A stretch of 41,835 bases of DNA from a virus (IMGVR_UViG_3300045988_111952); one strand, 5' to 3'; counted from the first letter of the stretch, positions 5,518-21,204 are shown. A program made the numbers and translations. The notes: generated by a model not told the origin, from the letters alone.

Positions 5518-5909
5518 GTATCGTAATCCTCCGTAAAATCTTCTATGTAGATTTCTGTTCTCGGGTTTTCTTTGTCGTAGTACACCCTTGTTCCATCTGT
5601 GGCCGCAACAATATTTCGGTTGTCATCTGCAAGTATTTTGGCATCTACTAAAACATCCATAATGGCGCTTTCTAAATTCGTTTTGTCCACTTTCCTACGG
5701 GTAGGCATGTAAAACAGCAGCCTGATGTTATAACGACCTGACAGCGGGGTTTTCGGCTTTGGGGTGAGATACCACATAGCGGCCTGTTCGTACTTTTTGT
5801 ACTGCCTGCTTGGGGCGATGAACGGCTTGCCTGTGCGATGATTGTTAAGTATCTGCTGGGAGTTCTTTTTGGTGATAGGGGGCAGGGAGATAATGTATTT
5901 TTGGATCAT
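5496..5909 (-). CDS. rusA: RusA-family Holliday-junction resolvase
   Basis: ITKKNS...VDKTNLESAIMDVLVDAKILADDNRNIV matches the RusA catalytic Asp-rich core. ATGA overlap with the upstream gene fixes the start at 5909. Confidence 0.75.
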   Translation of the reverse strand: MIQKYIISLPPITKKNSQQILNNHRTGKPFIAPSRQYKKYEQAAMWYLTPKPKTPLSGRYNIRLLFYMPTRRKVDKTNLESAIMDVLVDAKILADDNRNIVAATDGTRVYYDKENPRTEIYIEDFTEDYDTWGKGLT

Positions 5910-6826
5910 GTAAAGTCCTCCATGCTCATCTGTCCCGGCAGTACATCTTCTTCCATCCACCAGCGAAATACATCTTGCCCTGTACCGCCCATCATCCAGT
6001 TTCCGTTCAGCTTTCCGCGCACTCTGCGCTCATCAAGCATCCTGTCAAAGGATTGGATGTATAGTTTCTCGTAAGCAGGCCAGCGTCGAAACTCCGCATA
6101 TCGTTTACTTTTCTTTGCAAGCGGACATCCGATACACCCCACACGATCCAGCCCACATTTATACAACGGATTGACAGGCACCTTTGCATCCTGCAAAAAG
6201 CTCCATACTTGATTGTCCGTCCAGTCCACAATGGGGTTTACTACGCGTTTTGCGGCCACCTTACACCCTTCAAAAATTTCTCCCGGCTCCTGTTTTTCGC
6301 CTTTCAGAACGATTTTGTTCGCTTTGTTCCGGGTGTACGCTTCAAAAACGCCGCTGTCGCGCTTTCTTCGGCTACTTTCCGCCCACCGCACGCCAGTCGT
6401 GATGAACCTACCGTTTCCGCCCTGCTCTTTCAGCACAGCGCAGCAATACCGCATGATTCGTGTCGGCGGCATCAGCTTTTGCGGGATCAAACTCCACATG
6501 CTTGTGCGCTTGCCTTTGTAGGTGGGGTAATTGACGGTGCATTTTATACCCAAATTTTCGAGCCGCGCGAACTCCTGCCGTACAAAGCGCACCGTTTCCG
6601 GGGCGTCAGCCGTAGTGTGGTTATGCTGCACTTCAAACGGGATGCCCCCCCTCAGTGCAAGCTCTACGCACACGCTGCTGTCCTTACCGCCGCTGGTTGT
6701 AACGACCAGCGGCGTGCCGTAATACTTCAGCGCCATGTCGCTTGCAGCCTTCAGCCTCCCGATGGCGATCTTCTCCGGGTCGCCGCTTGTCGGCAGTGTC
6801 ACGAGGCCCCAATCTTCTTTGCTCAC
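5906..6826 (-). CDS. PAPS-reductase / PP-loop ATP-pyrophosphatase family protein (IbrA/DUF3440-like)
   Basis: PP-loop TTSGGKDSS. C-terminal Cys cluster CGLDRVGCIGCPLA. GTG start at 6826 with AAGGAG 8 nt upstream and a GTGA overlap. An upstream ATG at 6871 lacks an RBS. Confidence 0.8.
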   Translation of the reverse strand: MSKEDWGLVTLPTSGDPEKIAIGRLKAASDMALKYYGTPLVVTTSGGKDSSVCVELALRGGIPFEVQHNHTTADAPETVRFVRQEFARLENLGIKCTVNYPTYKGKRTSMWSLIPQKLMPPTRIMRYCCAVLKEQGGNGRFITTGVRWAESSRRKRDSGVFEAYTRNKANKIVLKGEKQEPGEIFEGCKVAAKRVVNPIVDWTDNQVWSFLQDAKVPVNPLYKCGLDRVGCIGCPLAKKSKRYAEFRRWPAYEKLYIQSFDRMLDERRVRGKLNGNWMMGGTGQDVFRWWMEEDVLPGQMSMEDFT

Positions 6827-7011
6827 GATGCTATCTCCTTTACTTTCGCGTAATACTTCTCGCTGTACCATATGTCCGGCAGGTTTGGATTTTGGGTGTA
6901 ACCTGCGGTGCGCAGGGCGGCTTCGGCGTTCCAATGCGTGGAATACAGGCGCTTGGAGTGGGTGATGTCACCGGTAGAGCGTGAGTAGGTGATGATTTCA
7001 TACTTTGCCAT
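6823..7011 (-). CDS. Hypothetical small protein (62 aa)
   Basis: ORF translationally coupled on both sides. Confidence 0.55.
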   Translation of the reverse strand: MAKYEIITYSRSTGDITHSKRLYSTHWNAEAALRTAGYTQNPNLPDIWYSEKYYAKVKEIAS

Positions 7012-7357
7012 TCAGCGTCAGCGCCTCTTTCTGGTTGATTTCTCCGCGCTGCATTTTCTGAAAAAGCGGCGTGTCAAAGTGCAGGCATTCATGGCAGGTG
7101 CGGGAGAACAGGACGTCAAAGGATTCGATTTTGTGCGGGAGAAATTCCTCTGCCGCCGTGCGCAGTTCGGCAACGGTAGGCGGGAATTTCAGCGTGGCGG
7201 CAAGGCTGGCCGCACCGCTTCTGGCTGCCTGCAAGGGTATGTCTTTCAGTGCAACGGCCCATGCTTTTGTCATTTCGTCTGGGTCTTTGCCGCGCATGAG
7301 ATTTGCCCAGTAGTTGGTACAGGACAGAAGAAAAACAGCGGTTTCCGGTTCAGTCAT
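6998..7357 (-). CDS. Putative helicase-loader-like protein (G39P-like N-terminal pattern)
   Basis: The pattern W...L.D.......A.......FPPTVAEL resembles the SPP1 G39P loader family. It lies directly downstream of the DnaD-like gene. The function call is tentative. Confidence 0.6.
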   Translation of the reverse strand: MTEPETAVFLLSCTNYWANLMRGKDPDEMTKAWAVALKDIPLQAARSGAASLAATLKFPPTVAELRTAAEEFLPHKIESFDVLFSRTCHECLHFDTPLFQKMQRGEINQKEALTLNGKV

Positions 7358-8045
7358 CGGCGGTCACTCCTTTTGCAAGCTGCTTTAATCGCTCCATCGC
7401 GGCTGTGGTATCAGTCTGACGGGCGGCGGTGCGCGAGGATTTTGCGCTTTCCTTCTCGGCAAGGTAGGCTTCAACGGTGCAGATTCCCTGCTGCTCACAG
7501 CGGTCAAGTATCTTGGAGATATAGCTCCACCGGCGTGCATTGTTGGCGGCGGCTTCGTCGATGGCCTGACAGATAAGCGATGCCGGAAATTTCAGCAGTG
7601 CGGTACTTATCGCGTCAGCAACCGCGCGTGGAACAGAGCCACAGTTCTGCTCATAGCGCTGGATGCAGTCTGCAAAATCTGCGTTATATTGCTCGCCTTG
7701 CGCGCACGCAGCAGCAGTAGTAGGAATATCTTTATCCTTGTTCTTGTCTTTATCTTTAGGGGGATTGGAGCGGGTTGTGGTGGGTTGTGCGGGGTTGCTT
7801 GGGGTTGATTGGGATTGCCGTTCTTTTAGCGTCTGCGATTTTTTCTCGTTTTTCTGCGTATCGCGGTCTATCTGGTCTAAAAGCATAGGAAGGATGAACC
7901 GTTCGTTGCCACTGGAGTGTCCGTCAATCGCCAAACCGTTGCTGTATTCCAGCAAGGCAGTCCATATCCGGCCTCTCTCAGCATCTCCGAAGGGTTCAAG
8001 TGCTTTTAGCCAGCTGTTGTAGCAGAAAAAGCCTTTCCTTTCCAT
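7350..8045 (-). CDS. Replisome organiser / DnaD-domain replication initiation protein
   Basis: GGAGG RBS. C-terminal stretch RRWSYISKILDRCEQQGICTVEAY is the DnaB_2/DnaD signature. Low-complexity linker in the middle. Confidence 0.8.
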   Translation of the reverse strand: MERKGFFCYNSWLKALEPFGDAERGRIWTALLEYSNGLAIDGHSSGNERFILPMLLDQIDRDTQKNEKKSQTLKERQSQSTPSNPAQPTTTRSNPPKDKDKNKDKDIPTTAAACAQGEQYNADFADCIQRYEQNCGSVPRAVADAISTALLKFPASLICQAIDEAAANNARRWSYISKILDRCEQQGICTVEAYLAEKESAKSSRTAARQTDTTAAMERLKQLAKGVTADD

Positions 8046-8048
8046 CCG

Positions 8049-8288
8049 CTACACCTCCATGTAATACTCTGCGACACGGCAAAGCCGACCATAGCGGTTG
8101 CGGCGGGTGACCATGCGGGATGCTACCGGGTAGCCTTTCCGTTTGAGGTCGGTGATGCGGGAGGCAAGGCGGGAACAGCCGTAGCCCTCGAGCGCATCCA
8201 GCGCGGTAAGGGAATCGCCGTTTTCAAGCGCGGCGAGAATCTGGTCAAGCTGGCTCGGATGCTTTCTTTCGTTCTTTCTTTCATTCAT
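8049..8288 (-). CDS. Winged-helix DNA-binding protein (HTH_39-like)
   Basis: GDSLTALDALEGYGCSRLASRITDLKRKGYPV matches the HTH_39 pattern. The internal ATG avoids overlap with ssb. Confidence 0.65.
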   Translation of the reverse strand: MNERKNERKHPSQLDQILAALENGDSLTALDALEGYGCSRLASRITDLKRKGYPVASRMVTRRNRYGRLCRVAEYYMEV

Positions 8289-8301
8289 GGCGCGCACCTC
8301 A

Positions 8302-8742
8302 CTAGAACGGCAAATCGCCGTCATCCTCAATAAGGGCATAGTCTGCATCTGGTTCACCCTGCGTACGCTGTGAGAGGGCTGCGGGGCGCTGTGCGGCGTT
8401 CTGCGGGGCATGGCTGGTACTTTCCTTACTGCCGCAGAAACTCACGTTCTGGGCCACGATTTCAACGGCGGTGCGGTTGTTGCCGTTCTTGTCCTGATAC
8501 TGGCGGGTCTGCAAGCGGCCATCAATGGCAATGAGGGCACCTTTGGGGAAGTATTTGCAGACAAATTCTGCGGTCTTGCCCCATGCGGTGACATACAGCC
8601 AGTTTGTCTGGCTCTGGCCGCTGGCATCCTTATAGCCGGAATCGTTTGCGATGCGGAAAGAGCAGACGGACTTTCCGCTGTTCGTGGTTTTGAGTTCCGG
8701 CGATGCAGCGAGTCTTCCGATAATAGCAACAACATTAAGCAT
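8302..8742 (-). CDS. ssb: Single-stranded DNA-binding protein
   Basis: OB-fold N-terminus (MLNVVAIIGRLA..PELK), Gln/Pro-rich linker, acidic tail DDGDLPF. Confidence 0.95.
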   Translation of the reverse strand: MLNVVAIIGRLAASPELKTTNSGKSVCSFRIANDSGYKDASGQSQTNWLYVTAWGKTAEFVCKYFPKGALIAIDGRLQTRQYQDKNGNNRTAVEIVAQNVSFCGSKESTSHAPQNAAQRPAALSQRTQGEPDADYALIEDDGDLPF

Positions 8743-9385
8743 AACTTTCTACCTTCTTTTTGTGATAATATGTGGTTTTATCGATGCCGGCCATTTTGCA
8801 GGCCTCAGTTACGGTAACTCCAGATTTTATAAGATTGTCAATCTCTGATAAATCAACGCTTTTGTAACGCGGGTGATTTAAACTTGTTTTCAAACGCTCT
8901 TTAGCAGCCTTTGAAATCTTACTTTTTCTTTCGTCAGAGAATTTTTTACCGGAGTTGTGAAGAATTGTGTGCGCAGACGTAGACAGCATACACAAATTCT
9001 CGATTCGGTTATCGTCCTTTTTGCCATTAATGTGATGAATGCAATAGCCTTTTGGAATTTCAACCCCGGTTTCCTTTTCAAAGATATAAATGTGTTCGAG
9101 TACCATCCCATTTTTGTCAGCGCGGTGAAAATCCGGGGCATAAATAATCTTGTAACCTTTTGCTGTATATCTCGGGGCGTGGTTAAAATCCCTTTTACGT
9201 TGACCAGCAGAACGATTGGCGCTAATGGAATGTGCAGAACGTTTTAACCCTATTTTTCTGGCTTTTTTGCAAATACCAAGGAGAGTGCGGTTCGGGAACA
9301 TCTTGACAAGTTCTTCATTTGTGTACGAGCTATAATACTTCTTTAAGTTTGTAAGCTCAGCCTCTTCCCAAGATGGGTCTTTCAT
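8735..9385 (-). CDS. HNH homing endonuclease
   Basis: HHINGKKDDNRIENL....H..H HNH motif. C-terminal HTH. GGAGG RBS. Markedly AT-richer than the flanks. Wedged between ssb and the recombination genes. Confidence 0.85.
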   Translation of the reverse strand: MKDPSWEEAELTNLKKYYSSYTNEELVKMFPNRTLLGICKKARKIGLKRSAHSISANRSAGQRKRDFNHAPRYTAKGYKIIYAPDFHRADKNGMVLEHIYIFEKETGVEIPKGYCIHHINGKKDDNRIENLCMLSTSAHTILHNSGKKFSDERKSKISKAAKERLKTSLNHPRYKSVDLSEIDNLIKSGVTVTEACKMAGIDKTTYYHKKKVESYA

Positions 9386-9388
9386 AGG

Positions 9389-9715
9389 TTAGTCCTCCAA
9401 GTAGTTAATATAGAAGCGGCGGCGAAAGTCGTCGTGATCCCAATGGTAGTAGGCTTCTGCAAGCAGTTGGCCTTGTTTGTGGTAGTGGTCTTGCAGGTCG
9501 CCGCTTGAATGAATGGCGGCGTGGCAGGCGGGGCAGACGTTAATCCAGATGCCCAGCGCCTTGCTGGCCTTGCGGCGGCTTCCGCCGTAGATTTCATGCC
9601 GGGCGGTATCACCAAAGCGGTAGCAGCGGAAACAACAAAAGGGTTCATGCTCAAACAGGGACGGCGCATAACCGTTCTTGTCCAGTTTTACACCAAATTC
9701 ATTGCGGGTCTGCAT
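9389..9715 (-). CDS. Zn-binding His-Me-finger-like protein (DUF1364/NinG-like), putative nuclease
   Basis: CFRC...HEIYGGSRRKAS....VCPACHAAIH motif. The family call is tentative. Confidence 0.65.
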   Translation of the reverse strand: MQTRNEFGVKLDKNGYAPSLFEHEPFCCFRCYRFGDTARHEIYGGSRRKASKALGIWINVCPACHAAIHSSGDLQDHYHKQGQLLAEAYYHWDHDDFRRRFYINYLED

Positions 9716-10244
9716 CGTCTGTCAGTCCTTTCAGTTTTGCGATTTCTTCCGGGGTCATGGTGGGGATGCCCTGCTGCCGGCATTCCTGCACGATCAGTTC
9801 AATGAGGCGGTGCATCTGGGTGCTATCGAACACGGACGAGCCGTACCAGCATTGCAGGTTGCAGAAGGTCCCCTGCGGGGTGGGCATGTCATCGATCTTG
9901 CGAACCTGCCAGCCCTCGCCCTTGCTCTCCCAACCGTTTTTGAATGCCTTTGCAGCATCGGCACGGATGGTGACAAGGGCGGAGCTGCCGCCGATGTCGC
10001 GGATAAAGTCGCGGTAGATGTCCATCACAGGGCGGTTGATTTTGGCGGCAAGCTGGTTCATGAGCGTCCATGCGTAAGCGTTGGCCGAGAGGCTGCGCTT
10101 TGGTGAGGCCGTGCCGATGACGGCAGCAAGGGGCTTGTTTTCGTCAATGACGGCGCGGGCTTTATCGCAGTCGGCGGGGGAACATTCCAGCGTAATTGTG
10201 TTGCCGATAACAACCGCGGTCTTGATGGCAATTTGCTGCTTCAT
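9699..10244 (-). CDS. NinB/Orf-like recombination mediator (tentative)
   Basis: RSLSANAYAWTLMNQLA and the C-terminal STQMHRLIELIVQECRQQGIP parallel lambda NinB RSLDQNRKLWACLGDVS / EFAELLELIQAFGTERGV. ATGA overlap with erf. Confidence 0.6.
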   Translation of the reverse strand: MKQQIAIKTAVVIGNTITLECSPADCDKARAVIDENKPLAAVIGTASPKRSLSANAYAWTLMNQLAAKINRPVMDIYRDFIRDIGGSSALVTIRADAAKAFKNGWESKGEGWQVRKIDDMPTPQGTFCNLQCWYGSSVFDSTQMHRLIELIVQECRQQGIPTMTPEEIAKLKGLTDDADPQ

Positions 10245-10867
10245 TTCCACGCCTCTGCAATCTGCTGGCCCTGCTTCCAATCTTCTGCGGTAAAGTCCTT
10301 AGAGGGCTTGCCGATGGTTTCTGCGATAAGTTTCCACGCATCATTTTCATCGGCGCTGTTCTTCTGGCAGTAGGCTCTGACAGCGCGCTGGCACTCTGCG
10401 CGGGCGGCAAGGCGGGCTGCGGCGGTTTCTGTTATGGTCTTATTGTCCTGCGCGTTTGCCGCTGCGGCGGTCTGGTTGTGGTATTCATCGCTGTCGGGGT
10501 CTTTGGTGTCGTCAATGCAGAACAGGCCGTTCAGCGCGTATTTGCGGGCATAGCTGGATGCAGTGCCGGTGATCTGTGCGCCGTCCATGCCTTTCTTGGT
10601 TTCATCTTCGCGGGCAAGGGCGGTGGTGCTGGCGGCGTTGCCGTCTTTATCCTGCACGGTGGCGGTTGCCTTGATGTAGTACCGGCTACCGATGAGAATG
10701 ACTTCATCCGAGACTGTCAGGGTGCAGCCATGCTTGGCGCAAAGAGGCTTTGCGGCCTCGAGAATGCTTTCTGCGTTGCGGTACTTATATTTACCGAACG
10801 AGTTGTAGAGGTTCTTGGGGGCTTTGAGTTCCACTTGAATGTGGGATAGGGTTTCATAGATGCTCAT
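10241..10867 (-). CDS. erf: ERF-family single-strand annealing protein
   Basis: NSFGKYKYRNAESILEAAKPLCAKHG and GTASSYARKYALNGLFCID are ERF hallmarks. The internal ATG at 10867 abuts the upstream stop (TAATG). Confidence 0.8.
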   Translation of the reverse strand: MSIYETLSHIQVELKAPKNLYNSFGKYKYRNAESILEAAKPLCAKHGCTLTVSDEVILIGSRYYIKATATVQDKDGNAASTTALAREDETKKGMDGAQITGTASSYARKYALNGLFCIDDTKDPDSDEYHNQTAAAANAQDNKTITETAAARLAARAECQRAVRAYCQKNSADENDAWKLIAETIGKPSKDFTAEDWKQGQQIAEAWK

Positions 10868-11205
10868 TAGATAGCTTCTCCTTCCGGGTCGGGGGTGGTG
10901 AGGTGGATGCGGTAGCACTCTGCGGGGGCGGGGGCGTCAGAATAGTGCCGCGCCGGCAGATAGGACACCATGGGGATGCCGTTCACAGAAATTTCAATCC
11001 GAAGGTCGCCTGTGACCGCGTACCGTGTCAGCTTGCCGCGCTGGATAAAGATGTAGGATTTATCTTTCAGCAGCTTTACAGCTTTGTTGAAATCGTGCTT
11101 GCTGCTGAAAAATACGCCGTTCTCGTTGACATAACCAAACCAGCGTTCTGTTTCTTTCAGCATGGCGCAAGCGTTTAACATCTTGCAAACATCAGAAAAT
11201 TTCAT
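10867..11205 (-). CDS. Hypothetical protein (112 aa)
   Basis: ORF in operon context. Confidence 0.65.
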   Translation of the reverse strand: MKFSDVCKMLNACAMLKETERWFGYVNENGVFFSSKHDFNKAVKLLKDKSYIFIQRGKLTRYAVTGDLRIEISVNGIPMVSYLPARHYSDAPAPAECYRIHLTTPDPEGEAI

Positions 11206-11380
11206 TATGTTCCTCCTGCCATTCCCATGCGTTGACCTCTACAATGCAGTTGTCGCAGCCGAGAATCTCGTTGCCCCGCTTGTACATTTGTTCGCATTCC
11301 TCGCCGCATACAGGGCAGCGGGGGCGGCGGGGCTCGTCAGGCGGGAAGGGGTTGTCTTGATGGCCCCAAAAGCTGGTCAT
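11192..11380 (-). CDS. Small zinc-ribbon protein (62 aa)
   Basis: CPVCGEEC...CDNC motif. Overlapping start and stop codons. Confidence 0.6.
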   Translation of the reverse strand: MTSFWGHQDNPFPPDEPRRPRCPVCGEECEQMYKRGNEILGCDNCIVEVNAWEWQEEHNEIF

Positions 11381-12039
11381 TCGGAGACCTCCTGATTTTC
11401 TTTTTCATCAGAAAAATGCAGCTCCATCAAGTCGGCGATCGCAAGGTACTCTTTGGCATATTTGCTGTCGCCGTGGGTTTTCTTGACGATTTCGCGGAAC
11501 TGCGCCAAATCACCATAAAAGCAACCGCACTGTACGCGGAGAATTTTATCCTTGCAGCGAAAAAATGTGGTCGCGCGGAAATATCGGCCAAAGCCTTCAA
11601 CGACGGAGTAGTCCGCGTTGCCGGTGACCCACGCGATGCCGGTGACACGCGCGTTGCCGGTGACACACGCGTTGTCGGTGACACACGCGTTGTCGGTGAC
11701 ACACGCGTTGCCGGTGACCCACGCGTTGCCGGTGACACGCGCGTTGTCGGTGACACACGCGTTGCCGGTGACCCACGCGATGCCGGTGACACGCGCGTTG
11801 TCGGTGACACGCGCGTTGTCGGTGACCCACGCGTTGCCGGTGACACGCGCGTTGTCGGTGACACACGCGTTGCCGGTGACCCACGCGTTGCCGTCTTGGG
11901 AGAGGTTATTTTCCTTCTCAACAAATCCACCGAGTTCTCCCTTCTCGACGTTGCCAAAAGCGACGAGAGCCTTAATGCGGAACAGTTTCTTCCCGAAAAC
12001 GTTCGTTACAAATTCTGCGGTCAGTTCAAATTTCTTCAT
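11377..12039 (-). CDS. Hexapeptide-repeat (left-handed beta-helix-like) phage protein of unknown function
   Basis: 15 consecutive G/D-N/I-A-x-V-T hexapeptides, flanked by the conserved-looking N-terminal KLFRIKALVAFGNVEKGELGGFVEKENNLSQ and C-terminal CGCFYGDLAQFREIV modules. Confidence 0.85.
   Translation of the reverse strand: MKKFELTAEFVTNVFGKKLFRIKALVAFGNVEKGELGGFVEKENNLSQDGNAWVTGNACVTDNARVTGNAWVTDNARVTDNARVTGIAWVTGNACVTDNARVTGNAWVTGNACVTDNACVTDNACVTGNARVTGIAWVTGNADYSVVEGFGRYFRATTFFRCKDKILRVQCGCFYGDLAQFREIVKKTHGDSKYAKEYLAIADLMELHFSDEKENQEVSE
11605..11892. repeat. About 16 imperfect 18-bp tandem repeats (gttgccggtgacmcrcgc), coding
   Basis: Read directly from the sequence. They generate open frames in several phases on both strands. 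Confidence 0.9.
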
Positions 12040-12280
12040 GGCTGGATGCCTCCTTAAAATACAGCCCGCACAACAGATTCAGCGCCAGCAGGGCGGCGAT
12101 GGTGGTGGGGATGTTGAGAGAACCGAGCGCGGCCAGCAACAGCACCAAATCTGCGGTGATTGCCAGCTTGACGGACGCGCGGGTAAGTGATAGAATACAG
12201 TTAGAGCTTTTTGCGATGCTCTGTTTTTTTGCCGTTCCGGTGGTGGTGCACCGGGGCGGCGTTTTTGTTTTTGCAATCAT
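12026..12280 (-). CDS. Small membrane protein (84 aa, C-terminal TM helices)
   Basis: ATGA overlap with the upstream gene. Hydrophobic C-terminal half. Confidence 0.55.
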   Translation of the reverse strand: MIAKTKTPPRCTTTGTAKKQSIAKSSNCILSLTRASVKLAITADLVLLLAALGSLNIPTTIAALLALNLLCGLYFKEASSHEEI

Positions 12281-12882
12281 TCTTTGATTTCCTCCCATTC
12301 AAAGCGGCCCTTGCCGCTGTTTCTCCACTGCCCAAGCCCGCGCTTTGCGCCGTAGTCGAGGCATTCACGAACCATATCCTCAAGCTTGGGGTCAAGGCAT
12401 TCGATTTCAAACTCTGCTGTTGCACCTGCGGGAACACTCTCCGACTTTACGATGCTGACGCGTTCGCCCATCGGGGTTTGCGCCCGCAGGGGGCGCTCGC
12501 AGAAATCAACCTTCATGCCGTGCAGGTCGTAGGGAATCTCGCGCGGGGTAACGAAAATCAAGCCATCGATAGCCTGTTTGTACGCCTTGATAGCTGCGCA
12601 AGCCTTGCCGCCTGCATAGCCAGCCTTGCCCGCTTTGGCAAGCATTTTGCAGCTGTCCTTGAACATACCCTTTACCTGATAGTCATACAGGAACGGCGTG
12701 CCGTCGGCAGTTTTGGGAAAGACGGTGACGCGGTCTTCTGCGTTCTGCGCCTTGATATTGTCCACTTCTTCGGCGGTGAGGTCGCCGGTGGGGGCCTTGC
12801 TGGCAATATAGGTTGCGAGAAGTTCTTCATTGCTGGGTGAAGAACCGAGAACTTCTTCCAATAGGGTGATTTTTACTTTCAT
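12277..12882 (-). CDS. Hypothetical protein (201 aa), first gene after the periodic non-coding region
   Basis: Strong RBS AAAAAGGAGA. No family recognised with confidence. See the finding on the RAMP-like features. Confidence 0.85.
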   Translation of the reverse strand: MKVKITLLEEVLGSSPSNEELLATYIASKAPTGDLTAEEVDNIKAQNAEDRVTVFPKTADGTPFLYDYQVKGMFKDSCKMLAKAGKAGYAGGKACAAIKAYKQAIDGLIFVTPREIPYDLHGMKVDFCERPLRAQTPMGERVSIVKSESVPAGATAEFEIECLDPKLEDMVRECLDYGAKRGLGQWRNSGKGRFEWEEIKE

Positions 12883-12904
12883 TGTGGTTGTCTCCTTTTT
12901 AAAT

Positions 12905-13425
12905 AAAATCGGTTGCTTTTCTGCGCCTATGCCGATCTATGCAATGCCTACGCGATGCGGTGCTCCGCCACGCCGTTGCGGTGTCATTCGTTGCGTGGCC
13001 TCGCCATTCCATTGCCAATCAGAGCAAGGCTTTTCCACTGCTAATCAAATCGGTGCCTCCGCAAAACCTTGCCGGGCTATTCCGTTGCGTTGCATCTCTA
13101 TTCACTGCATCGCCTTGCCTTCGCGTCGAATCTCAATGCTATGCCTCTGCCAAGAAATGCCAAGCCACAGCCTCGCCATGCTCCGCCTTCGCTCTGAATT
13201 GCGTTGCTATGCCTCTGCCTTGAGACGCTGTCCTGAGCTATGCCTTTGCTGTGCTGCGCTTCGCTTTGCCTTTGCCATGCAATTCAATGCCGATGCTCCG
13301 CCAAGCCTTGCCTCTGCCTTGCGCAGCTATTCCGAGCTATGCTGATGCGGGGATAGGCTGCGCTTCACACTGCAATGCCGTTGCCACGCGCTGCGGGGCA
13401 AAGCCGTTGCTGGCAGTCAGCTGAT
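12905..13425. repeat. ORF-free region of about 90 phased 5/6-nt units (plus strand GCNNY, minus strand RNNGC)
   Basis: Hand-tabulated GC-to-GC spacings are almost exclusively 5, 6, 10, 11 or 15 nt. No minus-strand ORF. The plus strand is A-poor. Confidence 0.85.
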
Positions 13426-13614
13426 AAGGCTTGCAATTTGTTCGCAGGTCATGTTGCGGATGCTGCCATAGTGCATCCATACCCAGTTGCGGGAGCGGCC
13501 GAGAATTTTTGCGACCTTGGTGGGGCCGAAAAGCATCTCACCGGGGTAAAGCTCGGCAGCGCGGGCACGGACGGTGACAAGGGTGTCACGGTAGAGGGGC
13601 TTTTCACGGGGCAT
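13417..13614 (-). CDS. Small HTH DNA-binding protein (65 aa; excisionase/CII-like position)
   Basis: AGGAG RBS before the internal ATG at 13614. PTKVAKILGRSRNWVWMHY is an HTH-like segment. Confidence 0.65.
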   Translation of the reverse strand: MPREKPLYRDTLVTVRARAAELYPGEMLFGPTKVAKILGRSRNWVWMHYGSIRNMTCEQIASLIS

Positions 13615-13619
13615 GGGGG

Positions 13620-13805
13620 TTACTCCTTTCTTAAAAGTTCGTCTACGGTGCAGCCGTAGAGCTTGGCCATAAGGACGAGCGATGCGGCGCGGGGCATGTT
13701 CTCGCCGGTTTCCCAGCGGCATACAGCCGACTGATCAACACCGAGTTCCTTTGCTACCTGCGCTTGGGAAAGACCTGCTTTCTGGCGGGCCTGTGCAAAT
13801 GCCAT
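13620..13805 (-). CDS. Cro-like XRE-family HTH regulator
   Basis: GLSQAQVAKELGVDQSAVCRWETGENMP is a classic XRE HTH. GGGAGG RBS before the ATG at 13805. First gene of the leftward operon. Confidence 0.85.
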   Translation of the reverse strand: MAFAQARQKAGLSQAQVAKELGVDQSAVCRWETGENMPRAASLVLMAKLYGCTVDELLRKE

Positions 13806-13830
13806 AAATCTCACCTCCCGATATGAAATA

Positions 13831-13845
13831 ATGAGATAATCTCAT
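13831..13845. promoter_or_regulatory. Perfect 15-bp palindrome ATGAGAT-A-ATCTCAT, putative operator
   Basis: Abuts the -35 of the rightward promoter. Further ATGAGRT half-sites lie at 13953..13959, 13984..13990 and 14019..14025. Confidence 0.5.
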
Positions 13846-13873
13846 TGACAAACAAGAGAGCCAAAGTTATAAT
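13845..13873 (+). promoter_or_regulatory. Consensus sigma-70 promoter, rightward (TTGACA-17-TATAAT)
   Basis: TTGACA at 13845..13850, 17-nt spacer, TATAAT at 13868..13873. Confidence 0.7.
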
Positions 13874-13947: not shown

Positions 13948-13976
13948 ATTATATCTCATCTTCTTCATGTTTGCAA
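13948..13976 (-). promoter_or_regulatory. Near-consensus sigma-70 promoter, leftward (TTGCAA-17-TATAAT)
   Basis: On the minus strand: TTGCAA at 13976..13971, 17-nt spacer, TATAAT at 13953..13948. Faces the rightward promoter. Confidence 0.65.
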
Positions 13977-14037: not shown

Positions 14038-14361
14038 ATGTTTTGGACGAATTTTTCTACGCTTTGCGCCGATAAGAATTTATCCCCCAATGCAGTAGCG
14101 ATGGAACTAAAAATTCCTTCTGGGTCGATAACAGCGTGGCGCAATGGAGCTACACCCCGAACCAAGTCACTCACGAAAATAGCTAATTATTTTGGTGTAA
14201 CCGTTGACTACCTTTTAAACGCAGAAAAAGAAAACCCCACCAGCGTTACCGCTGATGGGGTGGACGAACTTGATAAAGAGGCGCTGGACATCATGCACCA
14301 GCTGCCGCCGGAGAAACGGGCGGCGGGTCTGGCGATGCTGCGAGGGCTTTTAAATAATTAA
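14038..14361 (+). CDS. CI-like XRE-family repressor (107 aa, no S24 peptidase domain)
   Basis: LSPNAVAMELKIPSGSITAWRNGATPRTKSLTKIANYFGVTVDYLL is an XRE HTH. Divergent from the Cro-like gene and upstream of the integrase. Confidence 0.85.
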   Translation: MFWTNFSTLCADKNLSPNAVAMELKIPSGSITAWRNGATPRTKSLTKIANYFGVTVDYLLNAEKENPTSVTADGVDELDKEALDIMHQLPPEKRAAGLAMLRGLLNN

Positions 14362-17542: not shown

Positions 17543-17613
17543 GTGTATTGACTCCTTTCAGATTTTGGGTTATGGGGCGGGGCTGCTTTACGCTGTGCAG
17601 CCCTGCGAGAGTT

Positions 17614-18081
17614 TCAGAGACGGACAAGTCCGTAATAGTAGTGGCGCAGGCCATCAGCGACAAAGGCCATATACAAGAGGTTGCCGGCCTCGTCTTGGCT
17701 ATAAGGCTCCGTCATCACATAGCCACGTTTCCAGTCGCTGCGCAGGTCGCGGGGCAGCTTGCAAGTCGGGGCGCGGTTTAACATCTCGTTGTAAACTTCC
17801 GCCGTGATTGCTTGGCCCTTGTGCGGGCGCAGCGTTCCGTCTCGGTGCCAGTCGGCGCGGGTGTAGGTGTCGGCAGTGGGCCGGCCGGCGGCCAGGTCGC
17901 AGTAGTGGTTGAACATCAGGCGGGCGTCCTCCGGGTCGTGGGTGTGGTAGCACTCAATTTCCCGACCGTCGGGGTACATGGCCATTACTTCGATATAGCC
18001 ATATTCGGCGGTGAGGTCTGCCGCGTCGATGATGATCTTGCGGCCCTGCCAAGTGGTTTCGGTGTGGTGTAGGGTTTTCAT
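17614..18081 (-). CDS. Hypothetical protein (155 aa)
   Basis: AAAGGAG RBS. Operon context. Confidence 0.75.
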   Translation of the reverse strand: MKTLHHTETTWQGRKIIIDAADLTAEYGYIEVMAMYPDGREIECYHTHDPEDARLMFNHYCDLAAGRPTADTYTRADWHRDGTLRPHKGQAITAEVYNEMLNRAPTCKLPRDLRSDWKRGYVMTEPYSQDEAGNLLYMAFVADGLRHYYYGLVRL

Positions 18082-20774: not shown

Positions 20775-20843
20775 GCACATGCCCTTGTAGCTCAATGGCA
20801 AGAGCCTTGGAGTGCCGGTTCAAGTCCGGCTGAGGGCATGTGC
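20775..20843 (+). ncRNA. tRNA-like module 2: long closing stem + D-arm + 8-nt linker + T-arm, no anticodon arm
   Basis: gcacatgccc pairs with gggcatgtgc. ta; D-arm gctc-aatggcaa-gagc. Linker cttggagt. T-arm gccgg-ttcaagt-ccggc. Confidence 0.55.
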
Positions 20844-21204
20844 TGGGTCGCTCCCACCGGTGAAAGCCCGGCGCAGGCAAAACGCGATAGCTAACCTAAA
20901 CGCTGTAAGCAAAGCGGCAAAGCCGATCAGGAGCGCGGCGCGATGGCAAGACGCAACGGGACTGCGAGAGCCTGAAAACTTTTGCCCGCACAGTGAAGTG
21001 CGAAAAAAACTTCAACCGCGGATAGGGGCGCGGGTATAAATACCGCCGAACACCGCAGGACTGTGCGGTATACAAATGACGCCCGCCAGCCCTGTGCGGA
21101 CAATACAGGGAATCAAAAAAAGCGTTGCGGACTTGCTCCCCGCAACGGGTGAGACCGGCATAGCAGAGACCGGTAGGGCGGGTATGGGGAATTTGGGAGT
21201 TTCT

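What the first reader, a model, noticed from the sequence alone, without database searches (positions are those of the whole stretch)
12905..13425. Half a kilobase of non-coding DNA built from about 90 phased 5/6-nt units (minus strand RNNGC) inside the early operon
The region lies between the start codon of 12277..12882 and the stop codon of 13417..13614. It has no minus-strand ORF, yet it is highly ordered.

Spacing: I tabulated every GC dinucleotide by hand. All of roughly 70 consecutive GC-to-GC spacings between 12925 and 13409 are 5, 6, 10, 11 or 15 nt. The four apparent exceptions are GCGC/GCNGC doublets whose two spacings sum to 5. That gives about 93 unit lengths in 484 nt, a mean near 5.2 nt. 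Two units are therefore about 10.4 bp, close to the B-DNA helical repeat.

Polarity: the units are directional. The plus strand reads GC-N-N-Y, and 6-mers are nearly always GCC-N-N-Y. The transcribed minus strand reads R-N-N-G-C, for example aaggc agaggc aaggc ttggc ggagc atcggc ... atggc aaaggc aaagc gaagc. The plus strand is strikingly A-poor.

Longer motifs recur: gctatgcctctgcc at 13138 and 13206, and atgctccgcc at 13178 and 13293.

What it is not: a 5-nt period cannot be coding. It is not a CRISPR array, because there is no repeat/spacer structure. It is not a simple satellite, because the N positions vary. I cannot match it to any described phage element.

Two readings seem possible:
- (a) A dsDNA array contacted every half helical turn, such as an origin or iteron field, a centromere-like site, or a nucleoprotein-filament site.
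- (b) A purine-rich, weakly structured part of the early transcript (or displaced ssDNA) that acts as a platform for a ring or filament protein reading a triplet every 5-6 nt. This is geometrically like TRAP on (G/U)AG triplets with 2-3-nt spacers, or like 6-nt-periodic Cas7-type backbones.
Basis: seen in the sequence. Interest (0 to 1): 0.88.

Follow-up and report, generated by a model that had tools for sequence, protein, structure and literature searches.

The report
Phage VIPR guide-RNA repeat array
The half-kilobase of 5/6-nt units is real, and it is most likely the guide-RNA array of a phage "VIPR" system, a small Cas7-like protein that coats a pentanucleotide-repeat RNA, which was first described in 2026 preprints; so it is a striking element but no longer an unknown one.

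Summary
Window 12905-13425 carries about 95 phased units (G-C every 5 or 6 nt). The Fourier period is 5.20 nt, it stays in phase over about 500 nt, and it lies far beyond shuffled controls.

The adjacent 201-aa gene (12277-12882, minus strand) encodes a stand-alone Cas7-family RAMP. The gene and the array travel together. All 80 close viral relatives have the array. About 60 of 80 diverse prophage loci show it on the GC signal, and most of the rest have equivalent arrays built on GA, GT or AA. The array lies upstream or downstream of the gene but always reads purine-rich R-N-N-G-C on the gene's sense strand. G and C are conserved. The three positions between them are hypervariable.

This matches the VIPR systems of bioRxiv 10.64898/2026.04.26.720920 and 720927: Vipr protein plus vrRNA pentanucleotide repeats that guide noncontiguous dsDNA recognition. 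Profile comparison with the SUSP1 Vipr family gives E = 3e-5 over the full length.

Differences from the characterised type II system:
- a G-Y-N-N-N consensus instead of GGY-NN
- an uninterrupted, tail-less array of about 95 units
- no conserved accessory gene
- an extra G every 5-6 units, which creates the 5.2-nt period and marks block boundaries

I found no targets.

The parts
12922..13410 (-). vrRNA-like repeat array. It holds about 95 contiguous units. On the minus (sense) strand they read C-R-N-N-G (5-mers) or C-R-N-N-G-G (6-mers, one every 4-6 units). The finding's own limits are 12905-13425.
   Evidence: Periodicity and phase. G and C are conserved (2.6-3.1% mismatch) while the three positions between them vary (12-16%) in homologous blocks of relatives. 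Arrays are present next to the homologous gene in related loci. The RNA folds no better than shuffles (z = 0.36).
12883..12921 (-). Conserved 3' end of the array, which is also the leader of the RAMP gene (GAAAAGCAACCGATTTTATTTAAAAAGGAGACAACCACA). It contains the ribosome-binding site.
   Evidence: This is the only stretch of the upstream region shared by most of the 73 distinct arrays of the close clade. The sequence was read.
12277..12882 (-). vipr-like gene encoding a 201-aa stand-alone Cas7-family RAMP (single RRM, thumb hairpin, C-terminal G-loop GLGQWRNSGKGRF).
   Evidence: - No Pfam or PHROG family.
- Profile hits to type VII Cas7 (E = 5e-6) and to Csm4.
- AlphaFold2 model with pLDDT 92.
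- Foldseek hits to type VII Cas7, Csm3 and Cmr4 (E down to 1.5e-8, TM 0.56-0.59).
- hhalign to the SUSP1 Vipr and to its family (E = 9e-5 and 3e-5).
- The family holds 6379 clusters at 90% identity and 1581 at 50%.
13417..13614 (-). 65-aa HTH protein directly upstream of the array. It is not a conserved partner.
   Evidence: Weak HTH_23 match. A homologue is present in only 7 of 80 close loci and 1 of 84 diverse loci.
13620..13814 (-). Cro-like HTH gene, the first gene of the early operon that contains the array and the RAMP gene.
   Evidence: HTH_3 at E = 6.5e-16, and PHROG families for transcriptional regulators and repressors.
13948..13976 (-). Promoter-like site (TTGCAA-17-TATAAT) that could drive cro, the HTH gene, the array and the RAMP gene.
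   Evidence: Consensus scan only. No terminator-like site lies on the minus strand between this site and the RAMP gene.
14038..14361 (+). Divergent cI-like repressor gene. It places the module at the lysis-lysogeny switch.
   Evidence: HTH_26, HTH_19 and HTH_3 matches. A perfect consensus promoter lies at 13845-13873 on the + strand.

Best explanation
The region is the guide-RNA (vrRNA) array of a VIPR-type system carried by a temperate phage of Gemmiger/Subdoligranulum.

**Shown here**
- A stand-alone Cas7-family RAMP gene and a pentanucleotide-repeat array form a conserved two-part module.
- The array is always sense-oriented with the gene.
- It has two fixed bases (G, then C/Y) and three hypervariable bases per unit.
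- It has no predicted secondary structure.

**Inferred from the SUSP1 and P. fulva experiments in the two preprints**
- The array is transcribed with the early operon, from the cro-side promoter.
- One Vipr protomer binds each repeat. It sequesters the fixed G-Y bases with its G-loop and thumb and exposes the variable bases.
- The resulting helical ribonucleoprotein filament recognises double-stranded DNA through noncontiguous base pairing.
- It thereby silences genes of competing phages or prophages.

**My own inference**
- The extra G that turns every fifth or sixth unit into a 6-mer adds one nucleotide per helical turn of the filament. The published filament has 5-6 protomers per turn.
- Alternatively, or in addition, the extra G punctuates the array into modules of 26-31 nt.
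For: **The protein is a RAMP**
- Profile hits to type VII Cas7 and Csm4 at the G-loop.
- A confident AlphaFold2 model.
- Foldseek top hits are Cas7, Csm3 and Cmr4.
- Sources name close homologues as Csm-complex or RAMP proteins.

**Homology to an experimentally characterised Vipr**
- hhalign of the family profile against SUSP1 Vipr gives E = 9e-5. Against the SUSP1-family profile it gives E = 3e-5 and probability 72%, colinear over 184 columns.
- The G-loop residues W and R that hold G2 and Y3 are conserved.
- The two residues that read G1 (H17, D177) are replaced. This fits the loss of the first G of GGY.

**Linkage of gene and array**
- The array lies next to the gene in 80 of 80 close viral loci.
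- About 60 of 80 diverse genome loci show it on the GC signal. Most of the rest have arrays built on GA, GT or AA with the same period.
- It lies upstream in the window's clade and mostly downstream elsewhere. It is always purine-rich R-N-N-G-C on the sense strand.

**Fixed and variable code**
- Mismatch rates in homologous blocks are 2.6-3.1% at G and C, against 12-16% at the three other positions.
- Arrays are rearranged or unalignable between phages whose proteins are 97-99% identical.

**Other support**
- The RNA is unstructured.
- The module sits in a phage early operon: cro, array, RAMP, Erf, NinB, HNH, SSB, DnaD-like.
- The published description matches: a phage-encoded RAMP of about 20 kDa, YNNGG or YNNNG pentanucleotide vrRNAs in the flanking intergenic regions, and a filament with one protomer per repeat and 5-6 protomers per turn.
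- The SUSP1 repeats were read directly.
Against: - I found no target under the published 1-nt-skip rule or its variants. This covers local searches, five IMG/VR pattern scans and a BLAST of contiguously decoded triplets.
- The array does not show the described vrRNA anatomy of 9-16 (at most about 30) repeats followed by a structured, invariant 3' tail. It runs for about 95 units without interruption.
- No vap-like accessory gene is conserved.
- Sequence homology to Vipr is remote (probability 60-72%).
- Expression, processing and binding of the RNA are untested here.
- I could not see the preprint's supplementary tables, so the VIPR type is unassigned.
Confidence: 0.8

Rival explanations
1. 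The RAMP does coat the repeat RNA, but the complex is not a DNA-targeting guide. The long tail-less RNA would act as a scaffold, sponge or decoy. For example, it could titrate the Vipr proteins or vrRNA-binding factors of competing phages, or regulate translation of the downstream RAMP gene.
For: - No targets were found.
- The first variable position is strongly purine-biased (A 49-57%, G 21-27%), which is odd for a free guide position.
- The array is three to six times longer than any vrRNA described.
- It has no tail and no accessory gene.
Against: - Hypervariability confined to the non-fixed positions, with rapid turnover between near-identical phages, is what a specificity code under arms-race selection predicts.
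- A pure scaffold would not need that variability.
- The homologous SUSP1 and P. fulva systems are shown to be guides.
Confidence: 0.1
2. The region is a double-stranded DNA site array, such as an origin, iteron field or partition site. A protein would contact it every half helical turn (2 x 5.2 = 10.4 bp).
For: - The period of 5.15-5.20 nt is close to half the B-DNA repeat, and it is phase-coherent over 500 bp.
- The region lies in the replication and recombination early operon.
Against: - Strand polarity and purine skew always follow the sense strand of the RAMP gene, on either side of it.
- The partner protein has an RNA-binding RAMP fold.
- The sequence is hypervariable, whereas origins co-evolve with their binding protein.
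- The non-integer period comes from discrete 6-nt units spaced 4-6 units apart. This matches the 5-6 protomers per turn of the published RNA filament.
Confidence: 0.04
3. The region is a decaying pentanucleotide microsatellite, or a remnant of a coding sequence, with no function.
For: - The unit is short and degenerate.
- Tandem Repeats Finder finds no clean repeat.
- The + strand has a spurious 171-aa ORF.
Against: - The phase is kept over 500 nt, and the 6-mers are far more evenly spaced than chance would give.
- The same architecture recurs next to homologues that are only 41-50% identical, in Clostridia, Coriobacteriia and Synergistaceae.
- There is position-specific conservation.
- A period of 5.2 nt cannot be coding.
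Confidence: 0.02

Closest known systems
VIPR (Viral Interference Programmable Repeat) systems, type II of Escherichia phage SUSP1 and a Pseudomonas fulva prophage (bioRxiv 10.64898/2026.04.26.720920 and 10.64898/2026.04.26.720927)
   Same: - A phage- or prophage-encoded stand-alone RAMP of about 20 kDa, with a single RRM, a G-loop and a thumb.
- Flanking intergenic tandem pentanucleotide repeats on the sense strand.
- Fixed bases alternating with hypervariable bases.
- Rapid turnover of the variable bases.
- Remote but full-length protein homology, with the G2/Y3-contacting W-R of the G-loop conserved.
   Different: - The consensus is G-Y-(R)-N-N, which is the authors' alternative 'YNNNG' class, rather than GGY-NN.
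- The G1-reading residues are replaced.
- The array has about 95 uninterrupted units (45-180 in relatives), against 9-16 repeats and at most about 30.
- There is no structured invariant 3' tail or pseudoknot.
- No conserved vap gene is present.
- A 6-nt unit recurs every 4-6 units, whereas the SUSP1 repeats are strict 5-mers.
- No targets have been identified.
Class 1 CRISPR-Cas Cas7 backbones (type III Csm3/Cmr4, type VII Cas7) on crRNA
   Same: The protein fold is the same, and these are the best structural matches. One protomer binds each short RNA segment, and a thumb displaces bases periodically.
   Different: - There is no repeat-spacer array.
- No other cas gene is consistently linked to the gene across 85 loci.
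- The period is 5/6 nt with sequence-specific fixed bases, rather than a sequence-independent 6-nt register.
- A single protein species is involved.
TRAP (trp RNA-binding attenuation protein) on (G/U)AG triplets with 2-3-nt spacers
   Different: - The protein fold is unrelated.
- TRAP is a closed 11-mer ring that reads 11 triplets to control attenuation.
- Here there are about 95 units and an open helical RAMP filament.
- In TRAP sites the spacer bases carry no information.
Multi-site sponge or antitoxin RNAs (CsrB/RsmZ GGA arrays; ToxI 36-nt repeats)
   Same: These are also non-coding RNAs built from many copies of a protein-binding motif, and some are carried or mimicked by phages.
   Different: - Their motifs sit in hairpin loops or pseudoknots at irregular or much longer spacing.
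- They have no 5-nt register and no RAMP partner.
- They have no hypervariable code positions.

Membership tests
VIPR system | Vipr protein: a small (about 20 kDa) RAMP with a single RRM, a glycine-rich loop and a thumb, encoded outside any CRISPR-cas locus | tested here: met
   - 201 aa, AlphaFold2 pLDDT 92.
- Foldseek top hits are Cas7, Csm3 and Cmr4.
- The G-loop aligns to type VII Cas7 and to Csm4.
- No other gene family, cas genes included, is consistently linked to it across 85 loci.
VIPR system | Sequence homology to an experimentally characterised Vipr (SUSP1) | tested here: met
   hhalign of A1 against SUSP1 Vipr gives E = 9e-5 and probability 60%. Profile against profile (A1 vs A2) gives E = 3e-5 and probability 72% over 184 colinear columns, with GlGqWRN aligned to GlGDWRP. 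The homology is remote, so it is supportive rather than conclusive on its own.
VIPR system | Tandem pentanucleotide repeats in the intergenic region flanking vipr, on the gene's strand | tested here: met
   Shown in the window. Also shown in 80 of 80 close loci and in most of the 84 diverse loci, always in sense polarity.
VIPR system | Fixed motif alternating with hypervariable positions | tested here: met
   Mismatch rates are G 2.6% and C 3.1%, against 11.8-15.8% at the three other positions. Arrays diverge far faster than the protein.
VIPR system | Canonical repeat consensus YNNGG (GGY/NN) | tested here: not met
   The units are C-R-N-N-G, so only one G is fixed. The second G appears only in the 6-mers. 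This corresponds to the alternative 'YNNNG' consensus that the authors list for some types, so it argues against type II, not against VIPR as a whole.
VIPR system | vrRNA anatomy: 9-16 (up to about 30) repeats capped by an invariant, structured 3' tail | tested here: not met
   About 95 units run without interruption. There is no recurring internal tail. Only a 39-nt conserved 3' end, which overlaps the ribosome-binding site, is shared. The fold z-score is 0.36. The authors mention 'staggered arrays' without spacers, and I could not inspect these.
VIPR system | Associated vap accessory gene | tested here: not met
   No neighbour family is shared by more than 18 of 85 loci, and those shared are generic Cro-like HTH proteins. 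The adjacent 65-aa HTH occurs in 7 of 80 close loci and 1 of 84 diverse loci.
VIPR system | Natural DNA targets that match the variable bases under the 1-nt-skip rule | tested here: inconclusive
   - There was no excess over shuffled controls in 2.2 Mb of related loci plus the window.
- One 16-base IMG/VR pattern gave 43 hits, and none extended beyond chance.
- Four patterns of 18-20 specified bases gave 0 hits.
- The decoding rule for this consensus and for the 6-mers is unknown, and exact-match scans are insensitive.
VIPR system | vrRNA expressed, processed and co-purifying with Vipr; filament with one protomer per repeat | not testable with these tools
   This needs small-RNA sequencing, a pull-down and cryo-EM. 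The only data here are a promoter-like site upstream of cro and the absence of an intervening terminator-like site.
Class 1 CRISPR-Cas locus | CRISPR repeat-spacer array plus further cas genes (Cas5/Cas6, a large subunit, Cas1/Cas2) | tested here: not met
   There is no repeat-spacer structure. The window neighbours checked are phage early genes, and no other gene family is consistently linked across 85 loci.
dsDNA iteron, origin or centromere array | A conserved duplex binding motif that co-evolves with a DNA-binding initiator or partition protein, independent of transcription strand | tested here: not met
   The sequence is hypervariable next to near-identical proteins. The purine skew is strictly tied to the sense strand. 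The partner protein has an RNA-binding RAMP fold.

The most novel reading that the evidence does not exclude
In this large gut-prophage clade the VIPR array may not be a set of short tailed vrRNAs. It may instead be a giant, tail-less, modular guide. It has 45-180 contiguous repeats, with one extra G every 5-6 units. That is one extra nucleotide per helical turn of the Vipr filament.

The extra G keeps a 5.2-nt register over hundreds of nucleotides, and it marks the points where modules are exchanged between phages. This would mean one of three things:
- filaments of up to about 100 protomers that cover about 300 bp of DNA;
- a new punctuation and processing rule that yields one-turn guides of 26-31 nt;
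- a decoding rule different from the published 1-nt-skip code.
Probability: 0.3. Interest if true: 0.7.

Novelty: new member of a known kind. Interest (0 to 1): 0.55.

Why it matters
VIPR was reported only in 2026, as a possible ancestor of CRISPR RAMP effectors and as a minimal programmable DNA-binding platform.

**Scale of the lineage.** This window shows that a very large Vipr-related lineage sits at the lysis-lysogeny switch of prophages of abundant human-gut Clostridia and Coriobacteriia. The lineage holds more than 6000 protein clusters at 90% identity. The arrays turn over faster than any neighbouring gene, which is what inter-phage conflict predicts.

**Features not in the main text of the preprints.** These are the fixed G-Y dinucleotide, the uninterrupted arrays of 45-180 units, the missing tail and vap gene, and the phased extra G. 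If they hold up, they bear on three questions:
- how filament length and helical geometry are set;
- how guides are delimited;
- how new specificities are acquired.

**Use for annotation.** A 5.15-5.2-nt Fourier signal next to a 200-aa RAMP is a simple, sequence-independent detector for such arrays.

Tried and rejected
1. **Rfam.** Nothing reached the gathering score in the region.
2. **Tandem repeats.** Tandem Repeats Finder found none.
3. **DNA similarity to GenBank phages.** No match.
4. **Pfam and PHROGs for the 201-aa protein.** No family.
5. **RNA structure.** Neither strand folds better than shuffles.
6. **Target search.**
   - Ten decoding rules with exact spaced seeds against 2.2 Mb of related loci plus the window gave no excess over unit-shuffled controls.
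   - Twelve-unit windows with mismatches allowed also gave no excess.
   - Five IMG/VR pattern scans found either random-level hits that do not extend or nothing.
   - BLAST of the contiguous-triplet decoding against phages found no match.
7. **Reading the variable triplets as codons.** Stop triplets are only partly depleted (27 observed against 48 expected, and 47 against 72). The commonest triplets (AAA, AAC, ATA) are not gene-like. This is inconclusive.
8. **The 65-aa HTH as an accessory gene.** Rejected, because it is rarely present. No other neighbour is conserved either.
9. **A "second array" about 500 nt downstream of the gene in some relatives.** Rejected. It is a coding 27-nt repeat in a repeat protein, and its harmonic mimics a 5.4-nt period.
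10. **Half-turn contacts on B-DNA as the cause of the 5.2-nt period.** Rejected in favour of phased 6-nt units.
11. **Preprint supplementary tables.** They are not held as text, so I could not assign a VIPR type.

Full report
**1.

The region lies between the start of 12277..12882 (-) and the stop of 13417..13614 (-). It contains 80 GC dinucleotides. Their spacings are almost only 5, 6, 10, 11 or 15 nt, plus a few 2+3 doublets.

GC autocorrelation peaks at lags 5, 10/11, 15/16, 21, 26 and 31, with z = 4-10 against 1000 dinucleotide-preserving shuffles. The lags in between are depleted. The Fourier spectrum shows a single sharp peak at 5.20 nt. The phase stays within about 60 degrees across the whole 500 nt. 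No other part of the 41.8-kb window approaches this signal.

Segmentation gives about 95-100 units, roughly 80% 5-mers and 20% 6-mers. Rfam has no family there.

**2. The neighbour is a Cas7-family RAMP**

The 201-aa product of 12277..12882 has no Pfam or PHROG family. A profile built from 71 diverse homologues hits the type VII Cas7 chains of the PDB (E = 5e-6) and Csm4, both at the C-terminal GxGxWRNxGxGRF loop. The AlphaFold2 model is confident (pLDDT 92). Its best Foldseek matches are type VII Cas7, then Cmr4 and Csm3 (E down to 1.5e-8, TM 0.56-0.59).

The family is large, with 6379 clusters at 90% identity and 1581 at 50%. The closest genomic relative is in a Gemmiger MAG. Others lie in prophage-like regions of Oscillospirales, Lachnospirales, Coriobacteriia and Synergistaceae.

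**3. The gene and the array are one module**

- All 80 close IMG/VR relatives (79-100% protein identity) carry a periodic region directly upstream of the gene.
- Of 80 diverse genome loci plus 4 GenBank phage contigs (41-66% identity), about 60 have a GC-periodic region of 240-930 nt touching the gene. It is usually immediately downstream and sometimes upstream.
- Most of the remaining loci have an equivalent array whose fixed dinucleotide is GA, GT or AA instead of GC.
- The period is 5.12-5.20 nt everywhere.
- On the strand of the gene, the array is always purine-rich and reads R-N-N-G-C.

The order varies but the orientation relative to transcription does not. This argues for a strand-specific (RNA) function and against a duplex DNA site.

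**4. Fixed and variable positions**

Phages whose RAMP proteins are 97-99% identical have arrays that align only in patches, often at shifted positions. Below about 91% protein identity the arrays no longer align at all, yet the periodicity is kept.

Within alignable blocks, the mismatch rates by position are:

| Position | Mismatch rate |
|---|---|
| G | 2.6% |
| C | 3.1% |
| Extra G of 6-mers | 6.1% |
| The three positions in between | 11.8-15.8% |

The only stretch conserved across the clade is the last 39 nt before the start codon, which includes the ribosome-binding site. The sense RNA folds no better than shuffled sequence (z = 0.36).

**5. Identification**

A literature search found bioRxiv 10.64898/2026.04.26.720920. 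It describes VIPR systems:
- A phage-encoded "Vipr" RAMP of about 20 kDa.
- vrRNAs made of 9-16 YNNGG repeats (GGY fixed, NN hypervariable) plus an invariant 3' tail, encoded in the intergenic regions flanking vipr.
- The NN bases read double-stranded DNA with one skipped base per unit, and they repress competing phages and prophages.
- Seven types exist, with alternative consensus sequences (NNNGG, YNNNG, NNNNG) and with "staggered" arrays.

The companion paper 10.64898/2026.04.26.720927 shows one protomer per repeat in a right-handed helical filament. The filament has six protomers per turn when free, and five protomers and about 25 nt of RNA per turn when bound to target. The G-loop residues W178 and R179 hold G2 and Y3, and H17 and D177 read G1.

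I located the SUSP1 locus in GenBank KT454805 and read its YNNGG repeats directly. The window's family profile aligns with SUSP1 Vipr (E = 9e-5). It also aligns with a 37-member profile of the SUSP1 family (E = 3e-5, probability 72%, 184 colinear columns). W and R of the G-loop are conserved (W186, R187). H17 and D177 correspond to S/T14 and Q185. This fits an array in which only G2 and Y3 (here G-C) are fixed.

**6. How it probably works**

The shown and inferred steps are separated in the Best explanation section. In short, the early promoter upstream of cro would transcribe cro, a 65-aa HTH gene, the array and the RAMP gene. RAMP protomers bind the G-Y of each unit and expose the variable bases. 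The filament then recognises DNA of competitors. Only the module, its polarity, the fixed/variable pattern and the protein fold are shown here. The rest rests on the homologous experimental systems.

**7. What differs from the described type II system**

- The consensus is G-Y-(R)-N-N.
- The array is uninterrupted for about 95 units (45-180 in relatives). The preprints give 9-16 repeats and a maximum of about 30.
- There is no structured tail.
- There is no conserved accessory gene. The adjacent HTH occurs in 7 of 80 close loci and 1 of 84 diverse loci, and no other neighbour is shared.
- 6-nt units (C-R-N-N-G-G) recur with striking regularity. The gap between successive 6-mers is 5 units in 31-34% of cases, 6 units in 21-22% and 4 units in 7-17%. 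Gaps of 1-3 units are nearly absent.
- Shuffling the order of units never reproduces the observed Fourier peak in most loci.

This spacing is the source of the 5.2-nt period. It equals the 5-6 protomers per turn of the published filament, so one reading is one extra nucleotide per helical turn.

The ends of blocks that are at least 92% identical between arrays cluster at the 6-mers. Starts fall within -8..-4 nt of the 6-mer's last G in 38% of cases, against 11% expected. Ends fall within +2..+6 nt in 35% of cases, against 10% expected. The 6-mers therefore also behave as module boundaries or recombination points. Neither preprint's main text mentions this. I could not see their supplementary data.

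**8. Targets**

I could not find any target. Ten decoding rules searched with exact seeds, and searches that tolerate mismatches, gave no excess over shuffled controls in 2.2 Mb of related loci plus the window. One 16-base IMG/VR pattern gave 43 hits, as chance predicts, and none extended. Four longer patterns gave no hit. A contiguous-triplet decoding found nothing in GenBank phages. The decoding rule for this consensus is unknown and the scans need exact matches, so this result is inconclusive rather than negative.

**9. Verdict**

The finding is real and biologically remarkable. The element belongs to a kind described a few months before the date of the literature library, so I file it as a new member of a known kind. 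Some features may amount to a new variant: giant tail-less arrays, the phased extra G and the lack of a vap gene.

Noticed in passing
window 11377-12039 (-): A 220-aa protein made largely of about 18-nt (6-aa) tandem repeats (NAWVTGNACVTDNARVTG...). It gives weak beta-solenoid and bactofilin matches and falls in PHROG 7964/5070, of unknown function. It lies directly downstream of the RAMP gene. In relatives such as L051 the same slot holds a 353-aa protein with 27-nt repeats (GxxGAASAT), and the harmonic of that repeat mimics a 5.4-nt period.
   Followed up: partly
window 17566-17618 (-), 20781-20838 (+), 21123-21186 (+): Rfam hits at gathering score: RAGATH-5 (a ribozyme-class motif, 52 bits), a tRNA, and a D12-methyl RNA motif (86 bits). 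The VIPR preprint mentions arrays interspersed with hammerhead ribozymes in other types. I saw no ribozyme in this array.
   Followed up: no
L155 3560-3990; L087 about 3530; L106 2760-3130; L121 about 4840; L004 about 3800: Subclades of the same RAMP family use a different fixed dinucleotide in their arrays: GA in a Synergistaceae locus and a Subdoligranulum locus, GT in an Oscillospiraceae locus, and an AA-marked signal in others. All keep the 5.15-5.2-nt period and the 6-mers that end in an extra G.
   Followed up: partly
arrays of L005-L084 compared with window 12922-13410: Homology blocks shared between arrays of near-identical phages begin and end at the 6-nt units. The same blocks appear at different offsets in different arrays. 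This suggests exchange of modules, like cassettes.
   Followed up: partly
window 13845-13873 (+) and 13948-13976 (-): Divergent promoter-like sites between the cI-like and cro-like genes. The + strand site is a perfect TTGACA-17-TATAAT.
   Followed up: no
window 5906-11205 (-): Early operon downstream of the module, as named by PHROGs: Erf-like annealing protein (10241-10918), NinB/Orf (9699-10280), HNH endonuclease (8735-9385), SSB (8302-8742), DnaD-like loader (7350-8045) and a PAPS-reductase-like protein (5906-6934).
   Followed up: partly
variable triplets of the arrays (window and 118 distinct arrays): The first variable position after G-C is strongly purine-biased (A 49-57%, G 21-27%). 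The triplets TAG and TGA are 2-4-fold depleted at the variable positions in the close clade, and about 1.5-2-fold in the diverse loci. I have no explanation for either.
   Followed up: partly
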